Assembly (NCBI GenBank): GCA_965230905.1
Contig: OZ246396.1
Coordinates: forward strand, 420,001-452,000
DNA: 32,000 bases
Origin: Candidatus Saccharimonadota bacterium
GTDB taxonomy: Bacteria; Patescibacteriota; Gracilibacteria; UBA1369; 2-02-FULL-48-14
Direction: 5' to 3'
Shown: one piece after another, positions 3 to 27,407 of the stretch
Numbering within the stretch: the stretch's first letter is position 1
Layout of the letters: each line of letters begins with the position of its first letter
Made by a program: the position numbers and the translations under genes
Notes under the pieces: model-generated
The model's input: only the letters and a program-made list of their open reading frames with translations
Told to the model about the DNA's origin: nothing
The model's database searches: none

Positions 3-2573
3 GACGGCATCGACAAAACCTTCACTAGCCCACTTTTTCCATGGGAAACAGCTAAAGAAGCGCAGACAAAGTACGCGGCGCTCATGGCAGAAGAAGCCGT
101 AGCAAAACGTGCAGAAGTCGAGCGTCGTGGTGAAGACGCCATTGACCTTGATGATGATGGAGTTATTGATGTCCCTGCAGTACCGGGACTTGATCCTGAG
201 GTGCAAGAACCTGACTCTGCGGAGGACGCCCCAGTAGAGGCGGAAGCCGATGCTGCTGAAGAAGAACCCGAGGAAGAAACCGCGCCGGAGACTGAGCTCT
301 CTCGCGATGAAGCGCTAAAGGCGGAATGGCCGAAGGTAAGAGGGCGCATTGAAGGATTGGCGTCTAGTTTTCCAGGCGTGACTATTACTTTCAAGGATGC
401 CTCTGATGATAAAAAGGAAGATAAGCCGGCTGATGAAGCAGACATGTTCACCAACTACTCCAAGGGTAAAACGGTTTCGATTAAATACGGACCGCGAGAA
501 ACCGATGTAAAGCGTTACCAAATTATTGTTCCAAAAGAGGCGACTAGCTATTTAGATGCTTCCGTTACTATAAAGGAAGATGCAAGAAAGGGACTGGGAG
601 TTACATGGGAATCCGTAGAAAGGCAGCCTACAGAGAATCTTTATGACTATTTTGCAGGCGAGATAGATGAGGCGATTAAAGAAAACATTTTAGATAAAAT
701 TAAGGTGAAAGACCTTGCTCGGCTCAATGAATTAAGCCCCGCTGCACAACTTTACTATTTAGAGTGGTACGTCGAACACACCTTGAGTTTGGCCAAGAAA
801 AGTCCTGACGATTTAAGTAAAGCAGAGCAAAAGGAACTAGCTGAATTCTATAAAAAGGGCGTTGAGATGGAGGTTTCAGAAAAGTGGTTCGTGGAGCTGA
901 ATCAAAAATTGGCTTCGGCTGAGGCTAGTACCCAAACACGCTTAGACAAGATTGAGCTTAATATTCGGGCTCTTCAAAAGCTTCGGGCTGAGCGGGCTGA
1001 GCCTGTGGCGCCTGCAGCGCCTGCAGCCTCAAATGAAACCGGCGCGAAAAAAGCAGCTGAGGCTTTGGGTATTGCTCCCGCAGTTACCCCTGAACTGATA
1101 AAAAATGCCCCTGGAACCTTTTTGCGAAATGCATGGGCTCACACGGATGGATTTGTGGATGAATACAAACCTGAAGATGCTTCCTTGGCGCCTTACTTAA
1201 CTGTCAACAGTAGAAATATTGGGACACCACTGAGTGATGGTAGCGCTGCTTGGAGGATGCAGCTCACAACTGCCGCTGGAGATAAAATCTACATTGGCGA
1301 AAACACCCCAGCCGTTGATCCGGCTAAAGTGACCGCTTTTGTTGAGGCGCAAGCTGCTCTTGGCAAGACGTATCTCCCGGAAGAGGTGACTCTTTATGCC
1401 GGATACCTCCAAATTATGAATGCATGGGAAGAAGCCCTTGATGAAGCTAAAGCCGAACATAAGCTCGATGAAAAATATCGTGAGTACATTGCTACAGAGC
1501 CAGTGGCTCCTGCGGAGGTGGCGGCGAGTGAGCCAATTCCTGAAGCGGATGTAGCGGCGAGGCGCGAGCGGGATGCCCTGGAGAACAGGAACACCTTTTC
1601 AATACCAATTACTCCAGCGGGAGCAGAGTTGATGAAAGAATGGGGGCTTAAGATCCAGACCAACCGTATATATATTAATGGCGTGGAACAACCAGGCAAC
1701 TTTGGAGAAGATACCACTATCCTCTCTATAGATGCAGCGTTCGGTAGAATGTATGTCACTGAGACTAATGTAGATGGCAGCAGCTCTTTTTATACAGGAT
1801 CAAGCCCAGAAGAGTTGTTTAGCAATATAATCTATGTTGGCACTCAAATCTATCTTGAGAAAAATAGGGCGACACTTACAGCTAGCGAGCTGCGTGAGTA
1901 CAATGCATCACTTCGATCTCTTGAAAAGGCGTATCCACGTTTTAAGTTCCTGCCTCAGTACAGTGCGGAAACATCGGTGGCGGCCGCACCTTCAGGCGAA
2001 ATCGATTTTGAGCTTGATGCGGATGATGACCCAATTCCTGTGGAAACTGTGCTGCCCCCAAATAATCCTGAATGGATTGAGGATATAATCAATGAGCCTA
2101 CTGAACCTGATTCAATACCTAATTTTGACGAGTCCGGATTAAAGATTGTTGACGTACCAACGCCAAATAGACGTGCCTTCCATAAATATGACCTCAGCAA
2201 GTCATTCACGCTGTCTACATTGGCCTCAACTGCTTCTTTCGTATATGAAGGTACTCCTCGGGGCTGGCTCCCAACAAGGTTGACGTTCACGACACCCTCT
2301 GCAGAGATTATCCAATCAATCTCACAAAAGTACTTACGGCCCAACTGGGCGGATGGCCTAAGCCAAGATCAAAAAACACCAGTGACTATAAATGTAATCG
2401 CTCTTGCACGTTGTGAAGCAGTCCTTTCGATCATAAATTCAGCGGAGGCAAGGCTTAAAGCAACTTATGCCCAGGAAGAGTCTTTTCAGGAGACTGTATA
2501 TGATGCAGAAAAGGCTCTACTTACCAATGAGTGTACTAAATTCAAGACTGCTCTCCAGCCTTACCTTAAATAA
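3..2573 (+). CDS. Large acidic protein of unknown function; 5' end runs off the window
   Basis: The frame is open from nt 3 (DGIDKTFTSPLFPWETAKEAQTKYAAL precedes the first Met at 84), with stop TAA at 2571-2573. It has a D/E-rich N-terminal part and Ala/Pro linkers (EPVAPAAPAAS, EPVAPAEVAASEP). I recognise no signal peptide, TM segment or catalytic motif. Confidence 0.6.
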   Translation, partial: DGIDKTFTSPLFPWETAKEAQTKYAALMAEEAVAKRAEVERRGEDAIDLDDDGVIDVPAVPGLDPEVQEPDSAEDAPVEAEADAAEEEPEEETAPETELSRDEALKAEWPKVRGRIEGLASSFPGVTITFKDASDDKKEDKPADEADMFTNYSKGKTVSIKYGPRETDVKRYQIIVPKEATSYLDASVTIKEDARKGLGVTWESVERQPTENLYDYFAGEIDEAIKENILDKIKVKDLARLNELSPAAQLYYLEWYVEHTLSLAKKSPDDLSKAEQKELAEFYKKGVEMEVSEKWFVELNQKLASAEASTQTRLDKIELNIRALQKLRAERAEPVAPAAPAASNETGAKKAAEALGIAPAVTPELIKNAPGTFLRNAWAHTDGFVDEYKPEDASLAPYLTVNSRNIGTPLSDGSAAWRMQLTTAAGDKIYIGENTPAVDPAKVTAFVEAQAALGKTYLPEEVTLYAGYLQIMNAWEEALDEAKAEHKLDEKYREYIATEPVAPAEVAASEPIPEADVAARRERDALENRNTFSIPITPAGAELMKEWGLKIQTNRIYINGVEQPGNFGEDTTILSIDAAFGRMYVTETNVDGSSSFYTGSSPEELFSNIIYVGTQIYLEKNRATLTASELREYNASLRSLEKAYPRFKFLPQYSAETSVAAAPSGEIDFELDADDDPIPVETVLPPNNPEWIEDIINEPTEPDSIPNFDESGLKIVDVPTPNRRAFHKYDLSKSFTLSTLASTASFVYEGTPRGWLPTRLTFTTPSAEIIQSISQKYLRPNWADGLSQDQKTPVTINVIALARCEAVLSIINSAEARLKATYAQEESFQETVYDAEKALLTNECTKFKTALQPYLK

Positions 2574-4191: not shown

Positions 4192-4614
4192 TTAAAAAGC
4201 ATTTGGCTCGTATCTCTTACAGCCCAATCGATCAAAGTCTTTATCATAGGAAACCACTGCCCACTCTCCACTTTGAATTTCAGGTGCAGAGGCAATCAAT
4301 GCATCTGTGTATTTTACTGAATGATTTGCATAAAGATCCACTCCCAGCTCCATGTTTTGATGATCCACCACTTTTAGATTGTGAACGCCTTGTAATGATT
4401 GAAGCGCTATCACTACTTTCTCTTTGTTCAGATGGTAGTAACTACGCAAGGTCCACGCAAATTCAGAGAGCACCAAAGTAGACGTGAAGGCTTCATATTT
4501 GCCTGAGCTGACTTTATCTAAGAACTTTAAACTTTCTATGGCCTGCTTGGGGACATCATGAACAAAAGCCCGGAGAAAAATATTGGTATCGATAAAAAAT
4601 TTAGATTCTTTCAT
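4192..4614 (-). CDS. vapC: PIN-domain toxin (VapC-type ribonuclease)
   Basis: FIDTNIFL, LSEFAW, YTDALIA and SYDKDFDRL supply the conserved acidic PIN residues. I prefer the ATG at 4614 (MKESKFFIDTN), which overlaps the antitoxin stop by 14 nt; the ORF track starts at 4635. Confidence 0.85.
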   Translation of the reverse strand: MKESKFFIDTNIFLRAFVHDVPKQAIESLKFLDKVSSGKYEAFTSTLVLSEFAWTLRSYYHLNKEKVVIALQSLQGVHNLKVVDHQNMELGVDLYANHSVKYTDALIASAPEIQSGEWAVVSYDKDFDRLGCKRYEPNAF

Positions 4615-4840
4615 AGTTGTTTTCCATGTATTCACGAGCTTTCATTACGTCTTTTTTATTTTTCACGTTCATAGAACCTGCAAGCTCAAAAAAGTTGGGC
4701 AGTGGCTTAACTCGAATTTCCCCTGATTTCTCGTCTAAAAATACGCTGAGCTTCGTATTTTTCTGGATTTGCATTTTCTTACGGATGAAATTGGGGATAG
4801 TGATCTGTCCCTTGATGGTCATCGCAGTGGTGTAGTTCAT
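4601..4840 (-). CDS. vapB: AbrB/SpoVT-type antitoxin (VapB-like)
   Basis: TIKGQITIPNFIRKKMQIQKNTKLSVFLDEKSGEIRVKPL is a swapped-hairpin AbrB/MazE-type DNA-binding domain. The gene lies directly upstream of, and overlaps, the PIN gene. Confidence 0.8.
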   Translation of the reverse strand: MNYTTAMTIKGQITIPNFIRKKMQIQKNTKLSVFLDEKSGEIRVKPLPNFFELAGSMNVKNKKDVMKAREYMENNYERI

Positions 4841-6858: not shown

Positions 6859-8115
6859 TCAAGCACGTCGTTCAATCTTGGCGCCGAGGCTGCGGAGTTT
6901 TTCGTCGATGCGGGAGTAGCCGCGATCGATGTAGTTGATGTCGCTGATGATGGTTTCGCCTTCGGCTATGAGGGCGGCGAGTACCATGGCGGCGCCGGCA
7001 CGGATGTCCCAGCTCACGATGGGCGCGCCTTTGAGGCGAGCGGGGCCGGTGATGGTGGCCTGGTGAGGGTTGAGGAGTTCGGCAGTGGCGCCCATGCGTT
7101 CCAGCTCGGGGAGGTAGTTGAGACGGCCTTCGAACAAAGTTTCGTGCACTTCACTGGTACCTTCACATTGCGTGAGCAGCACGGCGAAAGGCGCTTGAAG
7201 ATCGGTTGCGAAACCGGGATACACGGAGGTTTGGAGTTTTTCCACGGCATGGAGTTCGCCGTGTGGGAGGATATGAACTTCGTTTTCGCTAAGCTCAAAC
7301 TTCGCGCCCACTTCTTCGAGTTTTTGCCAGAAGCTGTCGAGGTGTTCCACGGGACAGTTTTTAATGCGCACATCGCCATTGGTGAGCACCGCTGCGAGGA
7401 CGAGGGTGCCGGCTTCGAGATAATCGGAGGTCACGGAATAGTCCACGCCGGTGAGGGGTTTGCCACCTTGAATGGTGAGGGTCGGCGAACCGATGCCGGA
7501 AATGTCGGCGCCCATTTTTTGCAAAAACCGGCAGAGGTCTTGCACGTGCGGTTCCATGGCCACCCAACGAATGGTGGTAGTGCCGGGAATGAGCACCGCG
7601 GCCATCACCGCGTTTTCGGTGGCGGTCACGGACGCTTCGGCCATAATAATATTCGCAGGCTGCAGGGCCGCGGCTTTTAAGTGAATGGATTCGTCGCTTT
7701 CAATAATTTCGGCGCCAAGTTTGGTGAGGGCGTGAAGGTGCGCGTGAACACTGCGTTTGCCGAGTACACAGCCGCCGGGGAAGGCGAGGTCTACTTCGCG
7801 GAAACGTGCGAGCAGCGGGCCGAGCAGCAAAATGCTGGCGCGCATGTGCTTCACGAGACTTGGGTCGATTTGTGCGGAGGCCACCCGAGACGGGTTCACG
7901 GTCACGGTTCCGGCGTCAAAACTCACGTCCGCGCCGAGGCCACTCAGAATCTTTAAAAATGCGTGCACGTCCGAAATGTCCGGAACGTTGTGAAGGGTGC
8001 TGGGCGTGGTCGCGAGTAAAGTGGCTGCCAAAATAGGCAGCGCGGCATTTTTGGAGCCGCCGATGCTGATTTCTCCTTTGAGTGGCTGACCACCTTGGAC
8101 TATGAATTGAGGCAT
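6859..8115 (-). CDS. murA: UDP-N-acetylglucosamine 1-carboxyvinyltransferase
   Basis: The protein resembles MurA over its full length (QGGQPLKGEISIGGSKNAALPILAATLL, and FPGGCVLGKRSV with the active-site Cys). I prefer the ATG at 8115 (MPQFIVQGG) over the TTG at 8136. Confidence 0.95.
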   Translation of the reverse strand: MPQFIVQGGQPLKGEISIGGSKNAALPILAATLLATTPSTLHNVPDISDVHAFLKILSGLGADVSFDAGTVTVNPSRVASAQIDPSLVKHMRASILLLGPLLARFREVDLAFPGGCVLGKRSVHAHLHALTKLGAEIIESDESIHLKAAALQPANIIMAEASVTATENAVMAAVLIPGTTTIRWVAMEPHVQDLCRFLQKMGADISGIGSPTLTIQGGKPLTGVDYSVTSDYLEAGTLVLAAVLTNGDVRIKNCPVEHLDSFWQKLEEVGAKFELSENEVHILPHGELHAVEKLQTSVYPGFATDLQAPFAVLLTQCEGTSEVHETLFEGRLNYLPELERMGATAELLNPHQATITGPARLKGAPIVSWDIRAGAAMVLAALIAEGETIISDINYIDRGYSRIDEKLRSLGAKIERRA

Positions 8116-8202
8116 AAGTTGCCTGGAGTATAGCAAAAGGAAACTGGGGCCGCCAGCCTCGACTTGCGGAAATTTGCTTATATGTTAAGATGCCGTCTTG
8201 TT

Positions 8203-8740: not shown

Positions 8741-8825
8741 GGGCAGGTTCCAGAGTGGCCAAATGGGGCGGACTGTAAATCCGCTGGCTCTGCCTTCGAA
8801 GGTTCGAATCCTTCCCTGCCCACCA
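8741..8825 (+). tRNA. tRNA-Tyr (anticodon GTA), long variable arm, encoded CCA
   Basis: The acceptor is gggcagg/cctgccc and the anticodon loop is ctGTAaa. The T-arm is ggaaggttcgaatccttcc and the 3' end is acca. TATAAT at 8724-8729 lies just upstream. Confidence 0.95.
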
Positions 8826-10653: not shown

Positions 10654-10729
10654 GCCATCTTAGCTCAGTTGGTAGAGCGGCGGTATCGTAAACCGCAGGT
10701 CACCGGTTCGATTCCGGTAGATGGCTCCA
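10654..10729 (+). tRNA. tRNA-Thr (anticodon CGT), encoded CCA
   Basis: The acceptor is gccatct/agatggc, the D-arm is gctcagttggtagagc and the anticodon loop is atCGTaa. The T-arm is accggttcgattccggt. Confidence 0.95.
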
Positions 10730-10791: not shown

Positions 10792-10867
10792 GCCACTTTA
10801 GCTCAGCTGGTAGAGCAACGGTTTTGTAAACCGTGGGTCGTCGGTTCGATTCCGACAAGTGGCTCCA
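10792..10867 (+). tRNA. tRNA-Thr (anticodon TGT), encoded CCA
   Basis: The acceptor is gccactt/aagtggc, the anticodon loop is ttTGTaa and the T-arm is gtcggttcgattccgac. Confidence 0.95.
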
Positions 10868-13307: not shown

Positions 13308-14177
13308 GTGGACATTGAAACAAAAATTCGTGAAGACGCTCCGTTGGCGCCGTTTTGCACCTTTCAAATTGGCGGCCTCGCGGATAGTTTTTTAGAGGCA
13401 AAATCAACAGAAGAGGTTTTGGCGGGGATTGAATGGGCCGAGGAACGGGACATGCCGGTATTTGTGTTTAGCGGCGGCAGCAATTTGCTTTTTGATGATG
13501 GTGGTTTTCGCGGGCTGGTGATTCGGGTGAAATCGGCTGGTTTGAAAGTGGAAGGCGAGGAGATTCATGCGGACAGCGGAGTTATAATGGCGAAAGTGGT
13601 TTTGGCGGCTCTGGAAGCGGGCTTAACCGGCATGGAAGAATGGAATGGATTGCCCGGCAGTGTGGGCGGAGCGGTGTATGGAAATGCGGGGTGTTTTGGA
13701 ATGGAGACCAAGGATGTTTTAAAAAGCGCGACGGTTTTTGTACCGGGCGAGGGCGTGAAAACCGTGACGGCGGCCGAGCTGGAGTACGACTATCGGCAGT
13801 CGCGGCTGAAAAAAGAGGGCGGAGTGGTTTTGAGTGCGGTGTTTAAATTACGCGCCGGTGACAAAACGGCGATCCAAGAAAAAATGCGGGAAATTGCCAA
13901 AAGCCGCATACAAAAACAGCCGGCCGGAAGCAGCACGGGTTCGTTCTTTAAAAATCCGCCGGGGGACTTTGCGGGGCGACTTATTGAGGCAGTGGGACTC
14001 AAAGGAAAACGGCTGGGGAAAGCGCAGATTTCTGAGCAGCATGCGAATTTCTTTTTGAACACGGGCGGGGCGAGCGCGGGTGAAATTTTGGAGCTGGCGG
14101 CGCTGGCCGAGGCAGAGGTTTTTAAACAATTTGGCGTGAAACTGGAGCGGGAAGTGGTCTTTGTGGCTAGTGAGTGA
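13308..14177 (+). CDS. murB: UDP-N-acetylenolpyruvoylglucosamine reductase
   Basis: The protein resembles MurB over its full length (FQIGGLADSF, FVFSGGSNLLFDD, GLPGSVGGAVYGNAGCFG, SSTGSFFKNP, ISEQHANFFLN). It has a GTG start. Confidence 0.95.
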   Translation: MDIETKIREDAPLAPFCTFQIGGLADSFLEAKSTEEVLAGIEWAEERDMPVFVFSGGSNLLFDDGGFRGLVIRVKSAGLKVEGEEIHADSGVIMAKVVLAALEAGLTGMEEWNGLPGSVGGAVYGNAGCFGMETKDVLKSATVFVPGEGVKTVTAAELEYDYRQSRLKKEGGVVLSAVFKLRAGDKTAIQEKMREIAKSRIQKQPAGSSTGSFFKNPPGDFAGRLIEAVGLKGKRLGKAQISEQHANFFLNTGGASAGEILELAALAEAEVFKQFGVKLEREVVFVASE

Positions 14178-15644: not shown

Positions 15645-17990
15645 ATGGCAGAGACTGTAGACGCTCACCGAGAGAAACTGGTTGCTAGCCAACTTGAAAC
15701 CCTCACCGAAGGACAGGGTTTGAAGGTTTCAGCCGAGTTCCTTACGGCGCTTAAAGCCTCCACCAACCCAAAAGACCAAGCCTTATATACAAACTTAATG
15801 GCTTACTATGAGCTAGAAAGTGGTGAAAACGGTTTAGAGGTGAGCTTAAAAGACGCTACTGGTCTCGACAGCAAAATTGACGATTACGAAGCGGCTTATT
15901 TAAAAAGAGCGGTAAGCAAAGTCCTTGGACCTTCTTCATTCCCTCAAGTCAAGATTGGGCCCGACGGTGCACGTATCCAAATCTCTGCAGGTGTAAAAGG
16001 TCTCACGATAACAGGTAGCGGAGACCATTGGACGATCGATGGTAACACTGAGCTCAGTTTTGACAGCCTGGATGCTTGTTTGCGTGCAAGTGAGCTAATC
16101 GCCGCAGGGCTCAATGCTCTTGGGAAAGGTGAGCCTGGCACCCCTGGGGATCTTGAGAGTCCATTTTACCTAAGTGGGCTCGCATTAACCTTTGATAGAG
16201 ATTGGGCGGCAGATCTTCACCCATGGATAGATGATAACCCTCTAAATGAGCGTATACCCACTGAAACGAAAGATGCGTGTGTGAACTATCTTAATAAAAT
16301 CTTCCGTGATCGCCTCGTTACGAATAGCAATGCGCCAGCAGTAGCGGCAAAAGCAGCTGAGGAGAAAAAAGCCGTTGCAGATGCAGATAAAATTGCGGTT
16401 TCTCCCGAAGCACTTAAAGCCGACGGACAAGAATTCATAAGCACACATGGGCTGATGCCTATTGACGACTTGATGGCAAAAGCCCGGGCTCTCAGTGGCA
16501 AGGCCGTGGGAGAGGGGCTTAACTTAGTTTCCGAGGCATCTAAAACGAATGGCTTTAGCGTCAGCGCCTTGGTGCTTGAGAATGGTCAAATACAAATTAT
16601 CCTTTCGGGAAATCCTAACGCGACAGGAAAAGAAAAACGCCAATGGACTTCTTACCGGGGAAATCTCGCACTGTCTATGCGAGGAGAAAAGGGTTATTCC
16701 TATCGAGAGCTGAAGTCGACCATTCGTCAAGAATTAGGGGGCGCCAGCGTAATAGTATTTGGTGAAAAAACTACCGAAGGCACCCAACGAGAATTTATTA
16801 CAAAAAATAGTCTCCCAAGCAATGCTTCACTGCAACGAAAGGTTGATGAATTTTTAGCGTCAGCCAAAGAGGGCGACTACTATACTTTCCAAACCGTTCA
16901 TGGCTACCTTGTGAGTGTTATTAAAAAAGAGGGGCGTGTCTTGGCACATCTTTCTGGATCAGAAGCTCCTGAGGCTGCTAGTAGCAAGGCTGATTGGGAT
17001 CAATACCGAACAAATACAAAAGCCCTTTTCTCTCCCTATCCAGGATATACAGTCGAAGATGCTGGTGAGGCCGCCCTGCCCAATGGTGTTACATATATTT
17101 ATGTAACAGGAAAACCTCGTGAAGCAGTGGCACGACAAAGTAGTGCGCCTTCAAGCACGCCAGCCCTTGCTCCTGAAGCAGCTGCCGAAGACCCTAAAAA
17201 TTACCTTAAATGGAATGCGGATGGAAAATCCTTCACATTCACCGCAGCTCCCGGTTCTGAAGCGGACAAAAAGATTCGTATTGAACAACTTTTGACTACT
17301 AACGCGGAACGAAAGTTGGTTTTGACCTCTGATAAGATAAGCGGTGAATTCACCTTTCAAAACGGTGATCAAGGATATTCCTGGTACAACGACGCCGGAC
17401 AACGTCTGGTGATTCGTGCCGGAGATCTTATCACTAAGAAAGTGGCGGAGGCACCTCTCGTAGCTGCTGCTCCAAGTGCACCTGCAAAAGTAGTGGTGGC
17501 TGGAGAGGCACCGGTTGAAGTGGCTCCGATTGTTGCTGCTGAGGCCCCATTTACGGAATCAGAGGCTCGGGATCTTGTAGGTCTAATTGAGGTAGGGGAA
17601 CGAGCAGTGAAAGACCTTCAAAAAGAAAAGGTGCGGGTGGCTGGACGCTGGCTTGTTCTTTCCAAGGACAGACAGCAGGCTCAACTCGACGAACTCGACA
17701 AAAAAATTATCGAAGAATCCGGGATGGTGGTAAAAAATATTGCCTTGCTACAAGCCAAGGCTCAACCTGAGTTTTATGCAAACCTGGCGGACCACTATAG
17801 ACCCATAGAGGCTGAGCAGCGAAGATTGGCAAAACTGCCACCAGCATCTGATGCACCTGCTCTTGCTACGGCAGAACCTACTCCTGTTGTGCCAACCGAA
17901 GTGCCTACTCCGGCGCCAGACAGCGAAGAGGGAGTGGCGGACAATCAGACTAGTGATCAAGCTGCTGATACGGAAAATGCGGACAGGTAA
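15645..17990 (+). CDS. Large acidic protein of unknown function
   Basis: This is a 781-aa ORF with Ala/Pro linkers (APLVAAAPSAPAKVVVAGEAPVEVAPIVAAEAP) and an acidic low-complexity tail. I recognise no signal peptide, TM segment or catalytic motif. Confidence 0.7.
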   Translation: MAETVDAHREKLVASQLETLTEGQGLKVSAEFLTALKASTNPKDQALYTNLMAYYELESGENGLEVSLKDATGLDSKIDDYEAAYLKRAVSKVLGPSSFPQVKIGPDGARIQISAGVKGLTITGSGDHWTIDGNTELSFDSLDACLRASELIAAGLNALGKGEPGTPGDLESPFYLSGLALTFDRDWAADLHPWIDDNPLNERIPTETKDACVNYLNKIFRDRLVTNSNAPAVAAKAAEEKKAVADADKIAVSPEALKADGQEFISTHGLMPIDDLMAKARALSGKAVGEGLNLVSEASKTNGFSVSALVLENGQIQIILSGNPNATGKEKRQWTSYRGNLALSMRGEKGYSYRELKSTIRQELGGASVIVFGEKTTEGTQREFITKNSLPSNASLQRKVDEFLASAKEGDYYTFQTVHGYLVSVIKKEGRVLAHLSGSEAPEAASSKADWDQYRTNTKALFSPYPGYTVEDAGEAALPNGVTYIYVTGKPREAVARQSSAPSSTPALAPEAAAEDPKNYLKWNADGKSFTFTAAPGSEADKKIRIEQLLTTNAERKLVLTSDKISGEFTFQNGDQGYSWYNDAGQRLVIRAGDLITKKVAEAPLVAAAPSAPAKVVVAGEAPVEVAPIVAAEAPFTESEARDLVGLIEVGERAVKDLQKEKVRVAGRWLVLSKDRQQAQLDELDKKIIEESGMVVKNIALLQAKAQPEFYANLADHYRPIEAEQRRLAKLPPASDAPALATAEPTPVVPTEVPTPAPDSEEGVADNQTSDQAADTENADR

Positions 17991-18057: not shown

Positions 18058-18134
18058 CGGGGTATAGCAAAGTTGGCTATTGCGCTCGGTTTGGGACCGA
18101 GAGGCCGCAGGTTCGAGTCCTGCTACCCCGACCA
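18058..18134 (+). tRNA. tRNA-Pro (anticodon TGG), encoded CCA
   Basis: The acceptor is cggggta/taccccg, the anticodon stem-loop is ctcgg-ttTGGga-ccgag and the T-arm is gcaggttcgagtcctgc. Confidence 0.95.
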
Positions 18135-18577: not shown

Positions 18578-19381
18578 ATGCGGCTGGCTGGTAAAGAATT
18601 TACGGTTGAAAACTTAGCTCCGTTTGGGGAACGCTGGGTGCCTACGGAGGGCGGACTTTTTGTGGACAAATGGCTCAAGCAAAATCTCCCCGAGATTGTT
18701 CAGGCCGTGCGAAAGGCAAAATTGGCGGTTCTACAAAACACGCAGATTGGTGCAAACTGGGAAAAAAGACCCGTGAATCCTCGCGATGAGATTCCTCACA
18801 TTGATAACGATCCATCCGTTGCGAATACGATAGGAGTGGTACAGATTTTGCATGCAGAAGGTCCTCGGGGTCCTACCGGCTACTCTAAACATCCTTATCT
18901 GGAATTGGCTGCTCAAAGCCATGCCGACTTACTCAAACAAGCCTGGGAGCAAGCTAGTCCTACCGTTCAAAAACTCTACCAACTGGAAGACTTGTGGCGC
19001 ATGTATGCAGAACGACGCGTCCCTTATGTTTATAAAGACACAGAGGCACATTTTCGCTTGATGAGGGATATGCAAGTTTACCCTGAACTACGAAGCACTT
19101 TTGAACTTCTGGATGCTTTTTACCGACGGGTGGCTAGGGACTGCCAAAAGGTGGTCCATGATTGGACTCAAGAACCTGGCAGCACCGTGATGGCTTACCA
19201 AGGTTTTGATGAGCAGTTTAAACCAGACAGACCGGTGGTGAATCACTTTGCCGTGGATTCGACGGGAAATCCAGATGGAGCACCTTTACACAGGAATTTT
19301 ATCCTCAACACCAAGCGATTTGATGAGCCTGAATATAGACTATTTAGAGACGATGAGGACTTAGATGGAATGGGCTTCTAG
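18578..19381 (+). CDS. Hypothetical protein (weak HxD...H pattern reminiscent of 2OG-Fe(II) oxygenases)
   Basis: The ORF is in frame from 18548; I prefer ATG 18578 (MRLAGKEF). IPHIDND ... VNHFAV ... LHRNF is the only motif-like feature and it is weak. Confidence 0.55.
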   Translation: MRLAGKEFTVENLAPFGERWVPTEGGLFVDKWLKQNLPEIVQAVRKAKLAVLQNTQIGANWEKRPVNPRDEIPHIDNDPSVANTIGVVQILHAEGPRGPTGYSKHPYLELAAQSHADLLKQAWEQASPTVQKLYQLEDLWRMYAERRVPYVYKDTEAHFRLMRDMQVYPELRSTFELLDAFYRRVARDCQKVVHDWTQEPGSTVMAYQGFDEQFKPDRPVVNHFAVDSTGNPDGAPLHRNFILNTKRFDEPEYRLFRDDEDLDGMGF

Positions 19382-19965
19382 CACGCTCCCCAGAGTCCGA
19401 GCTTGGCTTCTTGGGCCTGGCTTTCGAGGGCTTTGAAATAGTCCGGGGTGGTGGTTGGATATTGATCTGGGTAGCTGGCGTAACCTTCACGGAGCAAGGC
19501 GTCGTTGAGGCGGCTGAAGCTGCCATCAGATTGGAGCGCGTCTACGTAGCGGAGTTTGCGGCCATAAGGGTCGAGGTCCTCGTTGGCGGGGTCGGCGGTG
19601 AGGCGGACGGCGCGGTTTTTAAGGAAATCCATGGTGAAGAGGGCGGCTTCAGGGCCGTAGCACTCGGCGGTGGAATCGGGTCCGTTGATTTCGTTGGTGT
19701 CCACGGCGAGGAGGCGAACCTGGAAAAGGCTGCGATCGGGCGCGGAGAGGAGGAGGGTGTCTCCGTCTAACACGGCTACCACCCAGTAGAGGTCTTCCTC
19801 GGTGAGGTTTAAGAGGTCGGTTTTAGCGGTGTACACGGGTGCCTCCACTTCCTCCACAATCTCCAAAGCGTATTTTTCAGGCCAATCCTGCGCTTCCAAA
19901 GTTTCCGCAGAAACTACAGGAGTGGCGAAGGCCGAGAAAATGAATTGGAGAAGGGTGTCGAACAA
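19378..19965 (-). CDS. Secreted thermonuclease (staphylococcal nuclease / SNase-like)
   Basis: The signal peptide is MFDTLLQFIFSAFATPVVSAE. The SNase core reads VLDGDTLLL...VRLLAVDTNE...ECYGPEA...DPYGRKLRYV...LLREGYA. Confidence 0.85.
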   Translation of the reverse strand: MFDTLLQFIFSAFATPVVSAETLEAQDWPEKYALEIVEEVEAPVYTAKTDLLNLTEEDLYWVVAVLDGDTLLLSAPDRSLFQVRLLAVDTNEINGPDSTAECYGPEAALFTMDFLKNRAVRLTADPANEDLDPYGRKLRYVDALQSDGSFSRLNDALLREGYASYPDQYPTTTPDYFKALESQAQEAKLGLWGAC

Positions 19966-20052: not shown

Positions 20053-22512
20053 ATGAAGCAAACGCCACGCAGTTTCATCTTTAAATCCTATTCTTTTGAC
20101 GCCAAAAAGAAGCGGGTACGGTTTTCGTATGCGTTTAAGGGCGGGCCGAGTTTTACAGAGGAGATTCTGCTGCCGCGCGCGGTGAAAGCCGTGCCTAAAG
20201 ATTTGCTGCGGCTGGTTTTGGAAAGCGTGCATCTGATGCTGGGAATCAGTTACTACAAACTCTACTGCCCGGAGAAAGTGGAAATTCCGTACGCACTAAC
20301 AGCGGAACAGGCGGCTTTTTGGAACACGGTTTACAGTAAAGGCTTGGGGGAATTTGCTTATCGGAATAAATTAGATCCGCGGAAGTTTGCGAAGTTTCCA
20401 GTGAAAAAGGGGGCGCGGGCAGAATCGGTGGATTTTGAACGAAAAGACCGCAGTTTGCTCGGCATTGGCGGTGGGAAGGATTCGATTGTGGCGGGGGAAC
20501 TTTTGAAGGCGAGTGGATTTGAATTCGATGCGTTTTTGGTGGAGACAGAGCGAAAGTCGCCGGTGGTTGCTGACGTGGTGAAGACGATGAAGGTAGGCGC
20601 GCTGACGCTGGAGCGAAAACTGGATCCGAAGATTTTTAAGGAGCTGCCGGGGACGACCAACGGACATGTTCCCATCTCTGGTGTGTTTGCGTTTTTGGGA
20701 CTGTTGAGCGCCGTTTTATACGACTACCGCTACGTGATTGTGGGTAACGAGCAGAGCAGCAATTTTGGGAATGTGCAGTACAAGGGCATGGAGGTGAATC
20801 ATCAGTGGAGCAAATCCGCCGAATTTGAAACGCTTTTGCAAAATTATACGCGGGAATTTTTGACGCCGGACGTGACGTATTTTTCGCTGCTTCGGCCGTT
20901 TTATGAAATTCGCATCGCAGAAATGTTCACGCATTATCCACAGTATTTTGGCGTGTTCACCAGCTGTAATCGCAGCTTTAAGGTTCACAAAGAGCGTGGC
21001 GCGAAATTGTGGTGCTGCGAATGCGCGAAGTGTGTGTTTGTGTTTACTCTTTTGTCGGCGTTTATGGAGAAGGCGGAGGTGATAAAGATTTTTGGAAAGG
21101 ATTTGTACGCGGAGCCGAGTTTGGAGCCGATGTTTTTGGATTTGTTGGGCCAGGGAAAAATGAAGCCGTTCGATTGCGTGGGGACTTTTGAGGAAATGCA
21201 GGAGGCGTATGCGCTGAGCCGCCGGAAATCCAAGTTTGTACCACGAGGGCACTTTGTGCACGTGCACAAAACGGTGGCCGCGCCCACGGTGCCGGTACCA
21301 TTTCGACTGCTGGGCATGGATGATGTGCTGATTTTGGGTTACGGAAAAGAGGGTAAGGCGACGGAGGAATTTTTGAAGGCGCGCTGGCCGGAGCTGAAAG
21401 TGGAGATTGGCGACCAAGCCACGGATGCGAATTATTTGAGCAAGCAGGAGGATTTTGATTTTGTGATTAAGACGCCGGGGATTTCAAAGACCAAGGTCAC
21501 GCGTCCCTACACCACGGCTACTAATTTGTTCTTTGCGGCGCGGAAGAACAGGAACGCTGCGCTCCGCGCAGTGGTGGTTGGTGTGACCGGCAGCAAGGGC
21601 AAGAGCACCACCGCTTCGCTGATTGCGCATTTAAGCGGCGGACGGCTGATGGGAAACATTGGCAAGCCGATGCTGACGAGTTTGCTGGAGCCAGTGAAGG
21701 CCAGCGAAATTTTTGTTTTGGAACTTTCCAGTTACCAGTTGGACGACTTGGAATATTCACCAGACATTGCGGTGGTGACGAACCTCTTTCCGGAGCACAT
21801 GACCTACCACGGCGGACTGGAGAATTATTATGAAGCCAAGCGCAATATTGTGAAGCACCAGCGCGAGGAAGATGTATTTGTTTACAACCCGGCGAATGCG
21901 CAGCTGAAAGCGTGGGCAAAGGCCGCGCGCAGCCACACCGTTTCGTTCACCAAAGACTTGCCGCTGAAAGCGAGCGAGATTCCGCTGCTGGGAGACCACA
22001 ACCGCGACAATGTGCGCGCGGCCGTGACCGTGGCACGGATGCTCGGCGTTTCGGACGCGCTGATTAAGAAACGCATACTCAGTTTTAAGAGCTTGCCGCA
22101 CCGCCTGGAATTCGTTGGCACTTTTAAAAAAATCCACTTTTACGACGATGCCATTTCCACCACGCCCGAGTCCACTATGGAGGCGCTGAAGGCCCTGAAA
22201 AAAGTGGACACTATTTTCCTCGGGGGCGAGGACCGGGGTTACGAATTCGGCGAGCTGGAGAAAATGCTGCGCAAAATGAAAGTGCGAAACATCGTGCTGT
22301 TCCCCGATACCGGCGCGCGCATGCTAAAATCCCGTACGGGCTTCAAGATTTATGAGACGCGCCGCATGGAGGACGCGCTGCATTTTGCTTACAAAAACAC
22401 CGCGCCGGGGAAAATCTGTCTGCTTTCCTGCGCATCGCCAAGCTACAGTTTGTGGAGCAATTTTGAAGAAAAAGGCGAGCAGTTTCAGAAGTGGGTGAAG
22501 GAGCTGGGTTAA
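20053..22512 (+). CDS. murD: Fusion protein: N-terminal PP-loop/Cys-cluster domain (MurL-like candidate) plus C-terminal UDP-N-acetylmuramoyl-L-alanine--glutamate ligase (MurD-type)
   Basis: A single 819-codon ORF. Residues ~1-425 contain LLGIGGGKDSIVAG (SGGxDS-like PP-loop) and CNRS...WCCECAKC. Residues ~425-819 are MurD-like (ILGYGKEGKAT, GVTGSKGKSTT, LELSSYQLDD, NLFPEHMTYHG, LLGDHNRDN, LPHRLE). Confidence 0.8.
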   Translation: MKQTPRSFIFKSYSFDAKKKRVRFSYAFKGGPSFTEEILLPRAVKAVPKDLLRLVLESVHLMLGISYYKLYCPEKVEIPYALTAEQAAFWNTVYSKGLGEFAYRNKLDPRKFAKFPVKKGARAESVDFERKDRSLLGIGGGKDSIVAGELLKASGFEFDAFLVETERKSPVVADVVKTMKVGALTLERKLDPKIFKELPGTTNGHVPISGVFAFLGLLSAVLYDYRYVIVGNEQSSNFGNVQYKGMEVNHQWSKSAEFETLLQNYTREFLTPDVTYFSLLRPFYEIRIAEMFTHYPQYFGVFTSCNRSFKVHKERGAKLWCCECAKCVFVFTLLSAFMEKAEVIKIFGKDLYAEPSLEPMFLDLLGQGKMKPFDCVGTFEEMQEAYALSRRKSKFVPRGHFVHVHKTVAAPTVPVPFRLLGMDDVLILGYGKEGKATEEFLKARWPELKVEIGDQATDANYLSKQEDFDFVIKTPGISKTKVTRPYTTATNLFFAARKNRNAALRAVVVGVTGSKGKSTTASLIAHLSGGRLMGNIGKPMLTSLLEPVKASEIFVLELSSYQLDDLEYSPDIAVVTNLFPEHMTYHGGLENYYEAKRNIVKHQREEDVFVYNPANAQLKAWAKAARSHTVSFTKDLPLKASEIPLLGDHNRDNVRAAVTVARMLGVSDALIKKRILSFKSLPHRLEFVGTFKKIHFYDDAISTTPESTMEALKALKKVDTIFLGGEDRGYEFGELEKMLRKMKVRNIVLFPDTGARMLKSRTGFKIYETRRMEDALHFAYKNTAPGKICLLSCASPSYSLWSNFEEKGEQFQKWVKELG

Positions 22513-24308: not shown

Positions 24309-24394
24309 GCACTCGTGGTGGAATGGTAGACACGCACGCTTCAGAAGCGTGTCCGCGTATGCGGGTGGAAGTTCAAGTCTTCTCGAGTGCACCA
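24309..24394 (+). tRNA. tRNA-Leu (anticodon CAG), long variable arm, encoded CCA
   Basis: The acceptor is gcactcg/cgagtgc and the anticodon stem-loop is cacgc-ttCAGaa-gcgtg. The variable arm is tccgcgtatgcgggt. TATAAT at 24287-24292 lies upstream. Confidence 0.95.
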
Positions 24395-26937: not shown

Positions 26938-27330
26938 TTATAGGTAAAGTTTTTGAAATCCATTTTTTACTCTTTTATAATCGACTTCATCCAATTCGCC
27001 CAATCTTGTAGAGAGCCTTCTATGATCGACGGATCTGGCGTGCTGAAGACAGGCAGTCATTTCTCTACCCTGCTGACTAAAGCTTACATACCAGGTACCA
27101 GTGCGCAATTGAGTCGTAACAGGAATCACGAAGTAGAAACCATGCGTCAGCTTTCTAAAAATTATGGCTGGCCGTGAGAATAAATAATTCTTCCCGTTGA
27201 TTTCAGCTCCTACGTTTTCGCCAATACTAACCCACCAGATCTCACCTTCAGACACATGAGGAGCTTCGTGTACAATTGAGTGCAATCTTTCCTTCAAACC
27301 AATCCATTCTAAAAACTTTTTGACATGCAT
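26938..27330 (-). CDS. PemK/MazF-family toxin (long N-terminal variant)
   Basis: GEIWWVSIGENVGAEINGKNYLFSRPAIIFRKL...VIPVTTQLRTGTWYV...LQHARSVDHRRL matches the MazF/PemK SH3-like core. I prefer the ATG at 27330 (MHVKKF). A minus-strand TATAAT box is the complement of 27353-27358. Confidence 0.75.
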   Translation of the reverse strand: MHVKKFLEWIGLKERLHSIVHEAPHVSEGEIWWVSIGENVGAEINGKNYLFSRPAIIFRKLTHGFYFVIPVTTQLRTGTWYVSFSQQGREMTACLQHARSVDHRRLSTRLGELDEVDYKRVKNGFQKLYL

Positions 27331-27379
27331 AAATAAAATTAAGGGTTTTACAATTATAAAGTATGGCCTCCACAAAAGT

Positions 27380-27407
27380 CCTGACAAAAACCTGAAATTT
27401 TCTGACT
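27380..27407 (-). promoter_or_regulatory. Phased heptamer array, copy B (minus-sense aGTCAGa / TTTCAGG / TGTCAGG)
   Basis: The reverse complement of 27378-27410 is aaaagtcagaaaatttcaggtttttgtcaggac. The 4923-4956 copy is aaatgtcaggaaaatttcaggtatttgtcagga. They differ by 2 mismatches and 1 indel over about 31 nt. Confidence 0.5.

What the first reader, a model, noticed from the sequence alone, without database searches (positions are those of the whole stretch)
20053..22512. PP-loop/Cys-cluster domain fused to an atypical MurD: candidate MurL-MurD2 route to D-Glu in peptidoglycan
Seen in sequence: one uninterrupted 819-codon ORF. The C-terminal ~395 aa is a complete MurD-type ligase (ILGYGKEGKAT, P-loop GVTGSKGKSTT, LELSSYQL, NLFPEHMTYHG, GDHNRDN, LPHRLE). 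The N-terminal ~425 aa is unrelated to Mur ligases. It carries an SGGxDS-like PP-loop (GIGGGKDS) and a Cys cluster (CNRS...WCCECAKC). At the position where canonical MurD reads NDSKATN, this protein reads DDAISTT. In E. coli MurD the Lys in that motif is part of the D-Glu pocket, and here it is replaced by Ile. Established knowledge: in Xanthomonas and some other lineages lacking glutamate racemase, MurD2 ligates L-Glu and the ATP-dependent epimerase MurL then converts UDP-MurNAc-L-Ala-L-Glu to the D-Glu form. Inference: the N-domain is a MurL-type adenylating epimerase physically fused to a MurD2-type ligase. That would channel the intermediate and remove the need for free D-Glu in a reduced genome. 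I cannot confirm MurL homology by eye.
Basis: partly seen in the sequence, partly recalled or inferred. Interest (0 to 1): 0.7.

Follow-up and report, generated by a model that had tools for sequence, protein, structure and literature searches.

The report
Fused MurL epimerase–MurD2 ligase gene
One 819-residue protein of a small-genome (CPR/Patescibacteria-type) bacterium joins the two enzymes of the alternative Xanthomonas-type route that adds L-glutamate to the cell-wall precursor and then flips it to D-glutamate; this fusion is common in that radiation but is not described in the papers I could search.

Summary
ORF 20053-22512 (+) encodes 819 aa.

- **N-terminal module (residues 3-388).** It matches NCBIfam MurL (E 1e-96) and both Pfam MurL domains. 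It keeps every residue that is invariant in Xanthomonadales MurL. Its confident AlphaFold model has a QueC-like PP-loop ATP-pyrophosphatase core.
- **C-terminal module (residues 423-819).** It is a complete three-domain MurD-type ligase with all catalytic residues. The published positions that set D-Glu versus L-Glu specificity are in the MurD2 state (E581, I701, R728, P796, Y798). This signature is nearly identical to Xanthomonadales MurD2 (E-I-R-P-S-F) and unlike E. coli MurD (D-K-K-A-S-L).
- **Gene context elsewhere.** In 120 fetched genomic loci from other organisms, murL is almost always followed directly by a murD2-type gene. The fusion preserves that order.
- **Reality and spread of the fusion.** The exact protein lies on six contigs. 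At least 120 protein clusters share the architecture, mostly from CPR.

Not shown: enzymatic activity, substrate channelling, and absence of murI from the rest of the 1.3 Mb genome.

Verdict: a new architectural variant, and a much wider distribution, of a known pathway. Interest is moderate.

The parts
20053..22512 (+). Whole gene: 819-codon ORF encoding the fused MurL-MurD2 protein (stop codon at 22510-22512)
   Evidence: The ORF is listed. The identical protein is found on 6 contigs. The 120 best homologues have the same architecture.
20053..20427 (+). Residues 1-125: N-terminal beta-sheet plus helices of the MurL module (approximate extent of Pfam MurL_N); role unknown, possibly substrate recognition
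   Evidence: Precomputed Pfam PF26299 MurL_N hit. AF2 secondary structure shows strands E7-39 and helices H49-104 at pLDDT above 90. The boundary is approximate.
20434..20952 (+). Residues 128-300: PP-loop ATP-pyrophosphatase (HUP/adenine-nucleotide alpha-hydrolase) core of the MurL module
   Evidence: Foldseek against the PDB returns Cap9 (9nto_B), QueC (3bl5), TtuA, 3k32, ArgG and GMP synthase. Weak hits to PP-loop Pfam families recur among homologues.
20467..20484 (+). G139-G-G-K-D-S144: PP-loop-like ATP-binding motif (SGGxDS type), lying between strand 131-137 and helix 142-153
   Evidence: The motif is invariant in 60 fused proteins. G140, G141, D143 and S144 are 99-100% conserved in 87 MurL sequences that include Xanthomonadales.
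20797..20829 (+). N249-HQWSK-S-A-E257FE259: invariant MurL family motif, candidate active-site residues
   Evidence: It is 97-100% conserved in 87 sequences. The same motif, back-translated, retrieved MurL loci from Xanthomonadales, Actinomycetota and CPR.
20965..21033 (+). C305-x15-C321-x2-C324-x2-C327: four-Cys cluster, inferred structural metal (Zn) site of the QueC type
   Evidence: Each Cys is 99-100% conserved across 87 MurL sequences. QueC-type proteins are the nearest folds. Metal binding itself is an inference; the geometry was not measured.
21163..21183 (+). K371-P-F-D-C375-V-G: invariant lone cysteine motif, candidate catalytic acid/base or thioester site (speculative)
   Evidence: C375 is 98% conserved and KPF is 89-98% conserved across the family.
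21223..21318 (+). Residues 391-422: junction between the two modules; predicted to be ordered rather than a floppy linker
   Evidence: Full-length AF2 gives block pLDDT of 71-96 over residues 391-430 and an overall pTM of 0.90.
21319..22509 (+). Residues 423-819: complete three-domain MurD-type ligase module of the MurD2 (L-Glu-adding) type
   Evidence: TIGR01087 scores 252 bits and covers model positions 2-440 of 441. Foldseek TM is 0.73-0.76 (normalised to the target) against ligand-bound E. coli MurD. All catalytic residues are conserved.
21583..21612 (+). VTGSKGKSTT: Mur-ligase ATP-binding P-loop (K517 = E. coli K115)
   Evidence: Alignment to E. coli MurD; K is present in 121 of 121 sequences.
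21781..21813 (+). NLFPEHMTYHG: contains E581 (= E. coli D182, MurD2 E197) and the Mg-ligand H582 (= H183)
   Evidence: The specificity role of this position comes from PMC8788868.
22144..22164 (+). DDAISTT: I701 replaces E. coli K319; D699 (= D317) and T703 (= T321) are retained
   Evidence: Ile is found in 114 of 121 fused proteins and in 16 of 17 Xanthomonadales MurD2. K319T lets E. coli MurD accept L-Glu.
22222..22248 (+). GGEDRGYEF: R728 replaces E. coli K348 (= MurD2 R358)
   Evidence: Arg is present in 121 of 121 fused proteins and in every MurL-linked ligase examined.
22435..22449 (+). SPSYS: P796 and Y798 replace E. coli A414 and L416 (= MurD2 P433 and F435); S797 (= S415) is retained
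   Evidence: Pro in 121 of 121 and Tyr in 120 of 121 fused proteins. Xanthomonadales MurD2 reads P-S-F at these positions.

Best explanation
The gene encodes a bifunctional enzyme that carries out both steps of the MurD2/MurL route to the D-Glu residue of peptidoglycan.

**Ligase module (residues 423-819).** This is a MurD2-type Mur ligase. It activates UDP-MurNAc-L-Ala with ATP, through an acyl-phosphate, and adds L-glutamate instead of D-glutamate. [quoted passage not shown] It binds ATP at G139GGKDS144 and adenylates the alpha-carboxylate of the terminal L-Glu, releasing AMP in the end. Adenylation makes the C-alpha proton acidic. Conserved residues then invert the centre; the candidates are C375, H205, H250 and K254. 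[quoted passage not shown] No free D-Glu is needed.

**Origin of the fusion.** It arose by joining the adjacent murL and murD2 genes in their operon order, and it is widespread in CPR/Patescibacteria.

**Shown here:** homology of both halves, the specificity signature, fold, motif conservation, gene linkage and the reality of the fusion.
**Inferred:** the activities, the adenylation and inversion chemistry, the Zn site, and any channelling between the two active sites.
For: **MurL module**
- NF041275 matches at E 1.1e-96 over model positions 5-393 of 447.
- Pfam MurL_N and MurL_epimerase_C both hit the protein.
- Identity to Xanthomonadales MurL is 33-39%, with E around 1e-72 to 1e-78.
- The motifs GGG[KI]DS, GHxP, NE, NHQWSK, EFE, R281, SCN...WCxxCxKC and KPF[ED]C are 97-100% conserved in 87 sequences from Xanthomonadales, Actinomycetota, Alphaproteobacteria, Planctomycetota and CPR.
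- The AF2 model has pLDDT 93.6 and pTM 0.93. Its best PDB matches are the PP-loop enzymes Cap9, QueC, TtuA, ArgG and GMP synthase. That agrees with the published one-ATP-to-AMP requirement of MurL (PMC8788868).

**Ligase module**
- TIGR01087 scores 252 bits, above its cutoff of 212.
- All catalytic residues are kept.
- The signature at E. coli positions 182/319/348/414/415/416 is E-I-R-P-S-Y. Xanthomonadales MurD2 reads E-I-R-P-S-F and E. coli MurD reads D-K-K-A-S-L.
- The E197D/R358K double mutation converts MurD2 to D-Glu specificity, and K319T relaxes E. coli MurD.

**Linkage and architecture**
- murL is directly followed by a murD-like ORF on the same strand in nearly all of 120 loci. Single-ORF fusions occur in 11 loci, 8 of them CPR-labelled.
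- The full-length AF2 model has pLDDT 92.5, pTM 0.90 and an ordered junction.
- The window also encodes MurA-like and MurB genes and shows no MurI or Dat hit.
Against: - No biochemical data exist for any fused or CPR member.
- The MurL score of 324 bits is far below the NCBIfam equivalog cutoff of 700. That model was built for Xanthomonadales, and identity to that lineage is only 33-39%.
- Position 182 is Asp in 16 of 121 fused proteins and in at least 20 of the 36 sequences in my 'Actino/other' group of MurL-linked ligases. So Glu at this position is not a strict marker.
- Only E. coli MurD, plus the S. agalactiae MurD alignment, served as canonical comparators. No broad MurD versus MurD2 tree was built.
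- Absence of murI, dat or a second murD could not be checked in the rest of the 1.3 Mb genome.
- At least one Saccharibacterium has a functional MurI according to a paper cited in PMC11974145. CPR bacteria are therefore not uniformly without MurI.
- The window's own N-domain gives no Pfam PP-loop hit at E <= 1.
Confidence: 0.85

Rival explanations
1. The N-terminal module is MurL-like but catalyses a different adenylation-dependent change to the terminal glutamate alpha-carboxylate. One example would be amidation to iso-glutamine, as MurT/GatD achieves by other means. Another would be an activity on a different substrate. Under this view the protein is a ligase plus a modifying enzyme, not a ligase plus an epimerase.
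For: The MurL score is below the equivalog cutoff: 324 bits against 700. The fold belongs to a superfamily rich in amidotransferase-type chemistry, including QueC, NAD synthase, GMP synthase and asparagine synthase. Identity to characterised-lineage MurL is only 33-39%.
Against: Every residue that is invariant in Xanthomonadales MurL is also invariant in the fused family, which argues for the same chemistry. The attached ligase has the L-Glu-type pocket. An L-Glu product would need epimerisation before MurE can use it (established pathway knowledge). No glutaminase or other ammonia-donor domain is fused or adjacent.
Confidence: 0.07
2. The ligase half is an ordinary D-Glu-specific MurD. The genome obtains D-Glu from MurI, from Dat or from its host. 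The N-terminal PP-loop domain has an unrelated or regulatory role.
For: TIGR01087 (murD) is passed above its cutoff. Public records name the homologues 'D-glutamate ligase'. Some CPR bacteria do have MurI.
Against: The five positions that distinguish MurD from MurD2 all carry the MurD2 state, and they match Xanthomonadales MurD2. TIGR01087 cannot separate the two, since XOO_1320 itself was annotated as MurD. The N-domain is a clear MurL homologue. MurL-type genes are linked to this ligase type in almost every locus examined.
Confidence: 0.05
3. The single ORF is an artefact: a frameshift, a lost stop codon or a mis-assembly has joined two separate genes.
For: Split murL and murD2 gene pairs are the rule outside CPR and also occur in Peribacteria and some other CPR lineages.
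Against: The identical 819-aa protein is found on 6 contigs from at least two assembly sources. There are 120 homologous clusters of 778-860 aa from many independent metagenomes. The junction is conserved and predicted to be ordered.
Confidence: 0.01

Closest known systems
[quoted passage not shown]
   Same: The match is near full length at E 1e-96, and both Pfam domains are present. All family-invariant motifs are kept. It is linked to a MurD2-type ligase, with murL lying upstream of murD2.
   Different: It is covalently fused to the ligase rather than being a separate protein of about 450 aa. Identity is only 33-39%, and the score is below the equivalog cutoff. The Xanthomonadales C-terminal tail (model positions 394-447) is replaced by the junction to the ligase. 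The host is a CPR-type bacterium, a group not listed in the published distribution.
[quoted passage not shown]
   Same: It has the three-domain Mur ligase architecture and shares the specificity signature: E at position 182, I at 319, R at 348, P at 414 and an aromatic residue at 416 (determinants).
   Different: Identity is 28-33%. Position 416 is Tyr rather than Phe. It is the C-terminal module of a fusion protein.
Canonical MurD (E. coli, S. agalactiae; TIGR01087)
   Same: The fold matches at TM 0.73-0.76. The catalytic residues are conserved: K115, N138, E157, H183, K198, N268, N271, H301, R302, D317, T321, S415 and F422. It passes the TIGR01087 cutoff.
   Different: D182, K319, K348, A414 and L416 are all replaced, by E, I, R, P and Y. 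The predicted substrate is L-Glu, not D-Glu.
QueC-type PP-loop ATP pyrophosphatases (B. subtilis QueC 3bl5; CBASS Cap9 9nto; YcfA 9kq7)
   Same: It shares the alpha/beta PP-loop core, an SGGxDS-like loop and a C...CxxCxxC cluster. Carboxylate adenylation chemistry that yields AMP is expected (chemistry by analogy).
   Different: The window protein has no significant sequence similarity to these families. It has about 125 extra N-terminal residues and a helical C-terminal extension. Its substrate is a UDP-muramyl dipeptide, and the outcome is inversion plus hydrolysis, not nitrile or amide formation.
Other bifunctional peptidoglycan-precursor fusions (MurC-Ddl NF011171; MurE-MurF NF008896; MurF-Alr NF008897)
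   Same: These set a precedent for fusing consecutive or related cytoplasmic peptidoglycan steps into one polypeptide. All three models appear as weak hits.
   Different: They join a Mur ligase to another Mur ligase, to Ddl or to a racemase. None of them joins a Mur ligase to an ATP-dependent peptide epimerase.

Membership tests
[quoted passage not shown] | Significant, near full-length similarity to the curated MurL model and Pfam MurL domains | tested here: met
   NF041275 matches at E 1.1e-96 over model positions 5-393 of 447. PF26299 MurL_N and PF26298 MurL_epimerase_C both hit the protein.
[quoted passage not shown] | Score above the NCBIfam equivalog cutoff (700 bits) | tested here: not met
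   The score is 324 bits. The model is specific to Xanthomonadales, so failure means the protein lies outside that narrow equivalog. It does not mean the protein lies outside the family.
[quoted passage not shown] | Conservation of the residues invariant in the characterised (Xanthomonadales/actinomycete) lineages | tested here: met
   GGGxDS, GHxP, NE, NHQWSK, EFE, R281, C305, C321, C324, C327 and C375 are all present and 97-100% conserved in 87 sequences.
[quoted passage not shown] | Genetic linkage to a MurD2-type ligase | tested here: met
   The two are fused in the window. Elsewhere murL is directly followed by a murD-like gene in nearly all of 120 loci.
[quoted passage not shown] | ATP/Mg-dependent, unidirectional L-to-D epimerisation with AMP release | not testable with these tools
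   This is a biochemical property. The only support here is the PP-loop fold.
[quoted passage not shown] | Genome lacks glutamate racemase and D-amino-acid aminotransferase | tested here: inconclusive
   None of the 28 large ORFs of the 32-kb window hits Asp_Glu_race or aminotransferase class IV. The remaining 1.27 Mb or so of the source contig could not be read.
MurD2 (L-Glu-adding Mur ligase) | Complete Mur ligase with intact catalytic residues | tested here: met
   TIGR01087 covers model positions 2-440 of 441. Thirteen catalytic or binding residues are conserved. The fold matches MurD.
MurD2 (L-Glu-adding Mur ligase) | Glu and Arg at the positions of E. coli D182 and K348 (MurD2 E197 and R358), the pair whose mutation flips chirality | tested here: met
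   E581 and R728 are present. The determinants come from PMC8788868.
MurD2 (L-Glu-adding Mur ligase) | Pro and an aromatic residue at E. coli A414 and L416 (MurD2 P433 and F435), and no Lys at E. coli K319 | tested here: met
   P796, Y798 and I701 are present. Xanthomonadales MurD2 has P, F and I at these positions.
MurD2 (L-Glu-adding Mur ligase) | Preference for L-Glu over D-Glu in vitro | not testable with these tools
   This needs an enzyme assay.
Canonical D-Glu-specific MurD | D-Glu/ATP-site residues D182 (or T), K319, A414 | tested here: not met
   The window protein has E581, I701 and P796. E. coli MurD and S. agalactiae MurD both have K319 and A414.
PP-loop ATP pyrophosphatase superfamily (QueC-like) | HUP-type alpha/beta fold with a glycine-rich PP-loop between the first strand and helix | tested here: met
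   Foldseek gives probability 1.0 to Cap9, QueC and 3k32, with TM 0.45-0.66 normalised to the target. GGGKDS lies between strand 131-137 and helix 142-153.
PP-loop ATP pyrophosphatase superfamily (QueC-like) | Sequence-level membership of a Pfam PP-loop family (QueC, tRNA_Me_trans, NAD_synthase...) | tested here: not met
   The window N-domain has 0 families at E <= 1. Among 60 homologues there are only weak hits: tRNA_Me_trans in 23 of 60 (best E 1.6e-5) and QueC in 4 of 60.
PP-loop ATP pyrophosphatase superfamily (QueC-like) | Cys4 zinc site | tested here: inconclusive
   The C305-x15-C321-x2-C324-x2-C327 cluster is invariant. Neither its geometry nor any bound metal could be examined.

The most novel reading that the evidence does not exclude
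The MurD2/MurL route, not glutamate racemase, is the principal source of peptidoglycan D-Glu in large parts of the CPR/Patescibacteria and in many Acidimicrobiia and other lineages. In CPR the two activities have been fused into one compact enzyme, which hands the L-Glu intermediate directly from the ligase site to a QueC-like adenylating epimerase site. The invariant Cys375 and the Cys4 cluster would then define a new mechanistic class of unidirectional peptide epimerase that spends ATP.
Probability: 0.35. Interest if true: 0.7.

Novelty: new variant of a known kind. Interest (0 to 1): 0.55.

Why it matters
[quoted passage not shown] The data here show otherwise. There are about 1,200 MurL clusters at 50% identity with E <= 1e-30. 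They occur in many phylum-level labels, including a large part of the CPR, where the two enzymes are fused.

**Annotation.** Public records call these proteins D-glutamate ligases. That is probably the wrong substrate, and it hides the epimerase. Metabolic reconstructions of CPR cell-wall synthesis, and claims that CPR depend on their hosts for D-Glu, would be affected.

**Mechanism.** MurL was described as lacking recognisable domains. A confident PP-loop/QueC-like model, together with a short list of invariant residues, gives concrete mutagenesis targets.

**Experimental use.** The natural fusion is a convenient single-polypeptide system for complementation, for structural work and for testing channelling.

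Tried and rejected
- **Local Pfam-A.** This copy has no MurL models, so the N-half gave no hit. I relied on NCBIfam and on the precomputed Pfam labels instead.
- **Sequence searches of the PDB.** The whole protein and the PP-loop core found no MurL-like or PP-loop chain. The only hit to the Cys cluster was a non-significant LIM zinc finger at E 3.2.
- **Literature.** Searches for a described MurL-MurD2 fusion, for MurL in CPR, and for murI presence or absence in CPR or Peregrinibacteria found nothing relevant.
- **MurD versus MurD2 tree.** I did not build a broad phylogeny because only E. coli MurD was available as a full canonical sequence. The published specificity positions were used instead.
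- **murI in the rest of the genome.** The source genome (1.3 Mb contig) could not be scanned. The look-up tool returns only +/-10 kb, and walking the contig would exceed the cap.
- **Promoter and terminator scan.** The region around the gene showed nothing above the shuffled expectation.
- **Frameshift-artefact reading.** Considered and rejected; see the rival explanations.
Full report
**Observation.** The window has a single uninterrupted ORF at 20053..22512 (+), running ATG to stop and encoding 819 aa. Upstream, 87 bp away, is a divergently oriented SNase-family gene (19378-19965, minus strand). Downstream, a convergently oriented hypothetical gene overlaps the 3' end by 4 bp, so the gene appears to stand alone. 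The identical protein is carried on six contigs in public assemblies. These include a 1,307,106-bp ENA contig (ERZ1292638 NODE_1; the window corresponds to positions around 659-682 kb) and an independent Logan assembly. The ORF is therefore real and not an assembly join.

**What the two halves are.**
- NCBIfam places residues 3-388 on the curated MurL model NF041275. The match has E 1.1e-96 and 324 bits and covers model positions 5-393 of 447. It is below the Xanthomonadales-specific equivalog cutoff of 700 bits.
- NCBIfam places residues 425-816 on TIGR01087 murD at 252 bits, above the cutoff of 212, covering model positions 2-440 of 441.
- The local Pfam copy sees only Mur_ligase_M and Mur_ligase_C. 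The precomputed Pfam annotation of this very protein lists PF26299 MurL_N and PF26298 MurL_epimerase_C ahead of the Mur ligase domains.
- No solved structure matches the N-half by sequence.

**Ligase specificity.** The review of the pathway (PMC8788868) names the positions that separate E. coli MurD from X. oryzae MurD2.
- D182, K348, A414 and L416 in MurD correspond to E197, R358, P433 and F435 in MurD2.
- The E197D/R358K double mutation switches MurD2 to D-Glu.
- K319T lets E. coli MurD accept L-Glu.

I aligned the window protein, 120 fused homologues and E. coli MurD. Every catalytic or binding residue is conserved in 121 of 121 sequences: K115, N138, E157, H183, K198, N268, N271, H301, R302, D317, T321 and S415. 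F422 is conserved in 120 of 121. The specificity positions read as follows:

| Window residue | E. coli position | Frequency among 121 sequences |
|---|---|---|
| E581 | D182 | E in 105, D in 16 |
| I701 | K319 | I in 114 |
| R728 | K348 | R in 121 |
| P796 | A414 | P in 121 |
| Y798 | L416 | Y in 120 |

To compare with the characterised lineage, I scanned the species-representative genomes for the invariant N-domain motif NHQWSK..EFE. I wrote the pattern with GC-rich codons so that CPR hits would not dominate. The scan returned 120 loci. They included Dokdonella, Dyella, Pseudoxanthomonas and Arenimonas; Dyella and Pseudoxanthomonas are among the genera the review lists as MurD2/MurL carriers. 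The ligases encoded next to murL in 17 Xanthomonadales loci read E-I-R-P-S-F at positions 182/319/348/414/415/416.

One caveat applies. Position 182 is Asp in at least 20 of the 36 sequences in my 'Actino/other' group of MurL-linked ligases, so it is less diagnostic than positions 319, 348, 414 and 416.

**Epimerase module.**
- The window N-domain is 33-39% identical to Xanthomonadales MurL over about 360-400 residues, with E between 1e-72 and 1e-78.
- In an alignment of 87 MurL domains from Xanthomonadales, Actinomycetota, Alphaproteobacteria, Planctomycetota, Acidobacteria and CPR, these motifs are 97-100% conserved and all are present in the window: G140-G141-x-D143-S144, G204-H-x-P207, N232-E233, N249-HQWSK254, E257-F-E259, R281, C305-N306, W320-C321-x2-C324-x-K326-C327, and P372-F-x-C375.
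- AlphaFold2 with a 60-sequence alignment gives a very confident N-domain model, with pLDDT 93.6 and pTM 0.93.
- Foldseek against the PDB returns PP-loop ATP pyrophosphatases as the best matches: the QueC-like Cap9 (9nto_B, E 7.5e-5, TM 0.66 of target), TtuA, B. subtilis QueC (3bl5, TM 0.60), M. jannaschii 3k32, argininosuccinate synthase, YcfA and GMP synthase.
- GGGKDS lies between the first core strand (131-137) and helix 142-153, where the PP-loop sits in such enzymes.
- Among 60 homologues, weak Pfam hits recur to PP-loop families: tRNA_Me_trans in 23, PAPS_reduct in 9, NAD_synthase in 6, QueC in 4 and ThiI in 2. The window's own N-domain reaches none of them at E <= 1.

The published biochemistry is one ATP consumed, AMP formed, L to D only, with 'no known conserved domains'. 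That is what a PP-loop carboxylate-adenylating enzyme would give.

By analogy I infer that the C...CxxCxxC cluster is a QueC-type structural metal site. I also infer that C375, possibly with H205, H250 and K254, takes part in proton abstraction or return, or in a thioester intermediate. None of this was tested.

**Architecture and evolution.** In the 120 loci, the murL ORF is followed directly, on the same strand, by a murD-like ORF almost everywhere. This is the order of the two modules in the fusion.

| Group | Split pairs | Single-ORF fusions |
|---|---|---|
| Xanthomonadales | 21 | 0 |
| Peribacteria | 10 | 0 |
| Actinomycetota and unassigned labels | 50 | 3 |
| Other CPR-labelled loci | 4 | 8 |

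Of the three fusions in the 'Actinomycetota and unassigned' group, two come from MAGs labelled Gammaproteobacteria and one from an 'uncultured bacterium'. At least one of them (L037) is 54-57% identical to the window protein in both modules, and sequences from this group sit inside the mostly fused CPR clade. They are probably mislabelled.

Database searches show that the fusion is common.
- 1,877 proteins scored E <= 1e-10 among the 8,000 candidates scored.
- The best 120 clusters are all 778-860 aa and carry both MurL domains plus Mur_ligase_M.
- Where a name is given, they come from MAGs named Gracilibacteria, Parcubacteria, Moranbacteria, Staskawiczbacteria, Paceibacterota and Patescibacteria.
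- An exhaustive search of 50%-identity representatives with the N-domain found 2,605 clusters at E <= 1e-3 and 1,187 at E <= 1e-30.
- Of the top 150 representatives, 23 are fused and 117 are standalone.

A neighbour-joining tree of MurL domains puts the window in a mostly fused clade nested among standalone CPR MurLs. A few fused sequences lie elsewhere in the tree, so fusion or fission probably happened more than once (distance tree only).

The full-length AlphaFold model is confident (pLDDT 92.5, pTM 0.90), and the junction (residues 391-422) is ordered rather than disordered. The C-terminal half superposes on ligand-bound E. coli MurD at TM 0.73-0.76. This is compatible with a fixed arrangement of the two active sites, but it does not demonstrate channelling.

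**Context.** The window is 49% GC and reads well in the standard genetic code. It also encodes a MurA-like enzyme (6859-8136, minus strand), MurB (13308-14177), a T4SS pilin, an SLH/CAP protein, toxin-antitoxin components, YbeY, GuaA and five tRNAs. This gene content, the 1.3 Mb contig and the CPR-named homologues point to a CPR/Patescibacteria genome. None of the 28 large ORFs hits a glutamate racemase or a class-IV aminotransferase. The rest of the genome could not be examined.

**Comparison with what is known.** The pathway itself is established (Feng et al. 2017, as reviewed in PMC8788868 and PMC5808125). The reviews list Xanthomonadales, three alphaproteobacterial genera and four rare actinomycete genera as carriers, and they call the distribution limited. 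They mention neither a fusion nor CPR, and I found no paper that does. Curated models for MurL do exist (NCBIfam, Pfam), so the family is known to databases. Even so, the fused proteins are publicly named 'D-glutamate ligase' almost without exception. Other bifunctional peptidoglycan fusions, such as MurC-Ddl and MurE-MurF, are known precedents.

I therefore class this as a new architectural variant of a known system, with a much broader distribution than published. It is not a new kind of system.

**Verdict.**
- Channelling, and the absence of MurI from this genome, remain untested.
- Interest is moderate (0.55). The result is a well-supported finding that corrects annotation and offers a useful mechanistic handle on MurL, but it extends a known pathway rather than revealing a new one.

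Noticed in passing
L011, L037, L080 (genome-contig loci): Three loci carry single-ORF MurL-MurD2 fusions: two MAG contigs labelled 'uncultured Gammaproteobacteria' (GC 0.51-0.52) and one labelled 'uncultured bacterium'. At least one (L037) is 54-57% identical to the window protein, and sequences from this group fall inside the mostly fused CPR clade. They are probably taxonomic mislabels or mis-binned contigs.
   Followed up: partly
L006:2947-7179 (MAG labelled Bacillota): Here murL is followed by an 856-aa stop-to-stop frame that contains MurD-like_N and Mur_ligase_M, and then a diacylglycerol-kinase catalytic domain. This is either two genes in one frame or a different fusion.
   Followed up: partly
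L023, L049, L079, L109 (Acidimicrobiaceae, Thermoleophilaceae and other Actinomycetota MAGs): MurL or the adjacent MurD2 is split over two reading frames. The cause could be frameshifts from sequencing or assembly error, or pseudogenes.
   Followed up: no
window 84-2573 (+) and 15645-17990 (+): These two large ORFs (829 and 781 aa) have no Pfam family at E <= 0.001. Their function is unknown.
   Followed up: no
window 6859-8136 (-) and 13308-14177 (+): A MurA-like gene (EPSP_synthase family) and MurB lie 6-13 kb upstream of the fusion gene, interspersed with unrelated genes and tRNAs. The peptidoglycan precursor genes are dispersed here rather than grouped in a dcw-type cluster.
   Followed up: no
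window 4192-4635 (-), 26938-27387 (-): There is a PIN-domain gene and a PemK/MazF-like toxin gene. The public gene calls for the same contig list a second PemK-like gene near window positions 29.4-29.8 kb.
   Followed up: no
window 8741-8825, 10654-10729, 10792-10867, 18058-18134, 24309-24394: Five tRNA genes are present, all on the + strand: Tyr-GTA, Thr-CGT, Thr-TGT, Pro-TGG and Leu-CAG.
   Followed up: no
MurL family alignment, position of window K142: The Lys of the PP-loop-like motif GGGKDS is Ile in 19 of 87 MurL sequences and Arg in 2. This Lys is therefore not essential to the family, unlike G140, G141, D143 and S144.
   Followed up: no
Database names of P0003, P0021, P0025, P0047, P0067 and others: Fused MurL-MurD2 proteins are publicly annotated as 'UDP-N-acetylmuramoyl-L-alanine--D-glutamate ligase' or 'Mur ligase family protein'. 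Only one JGI record (P0065) names the epimerase. This looks like systematic mis-annotation of the substrate, and it omits the second activity.
   Followed up: partly
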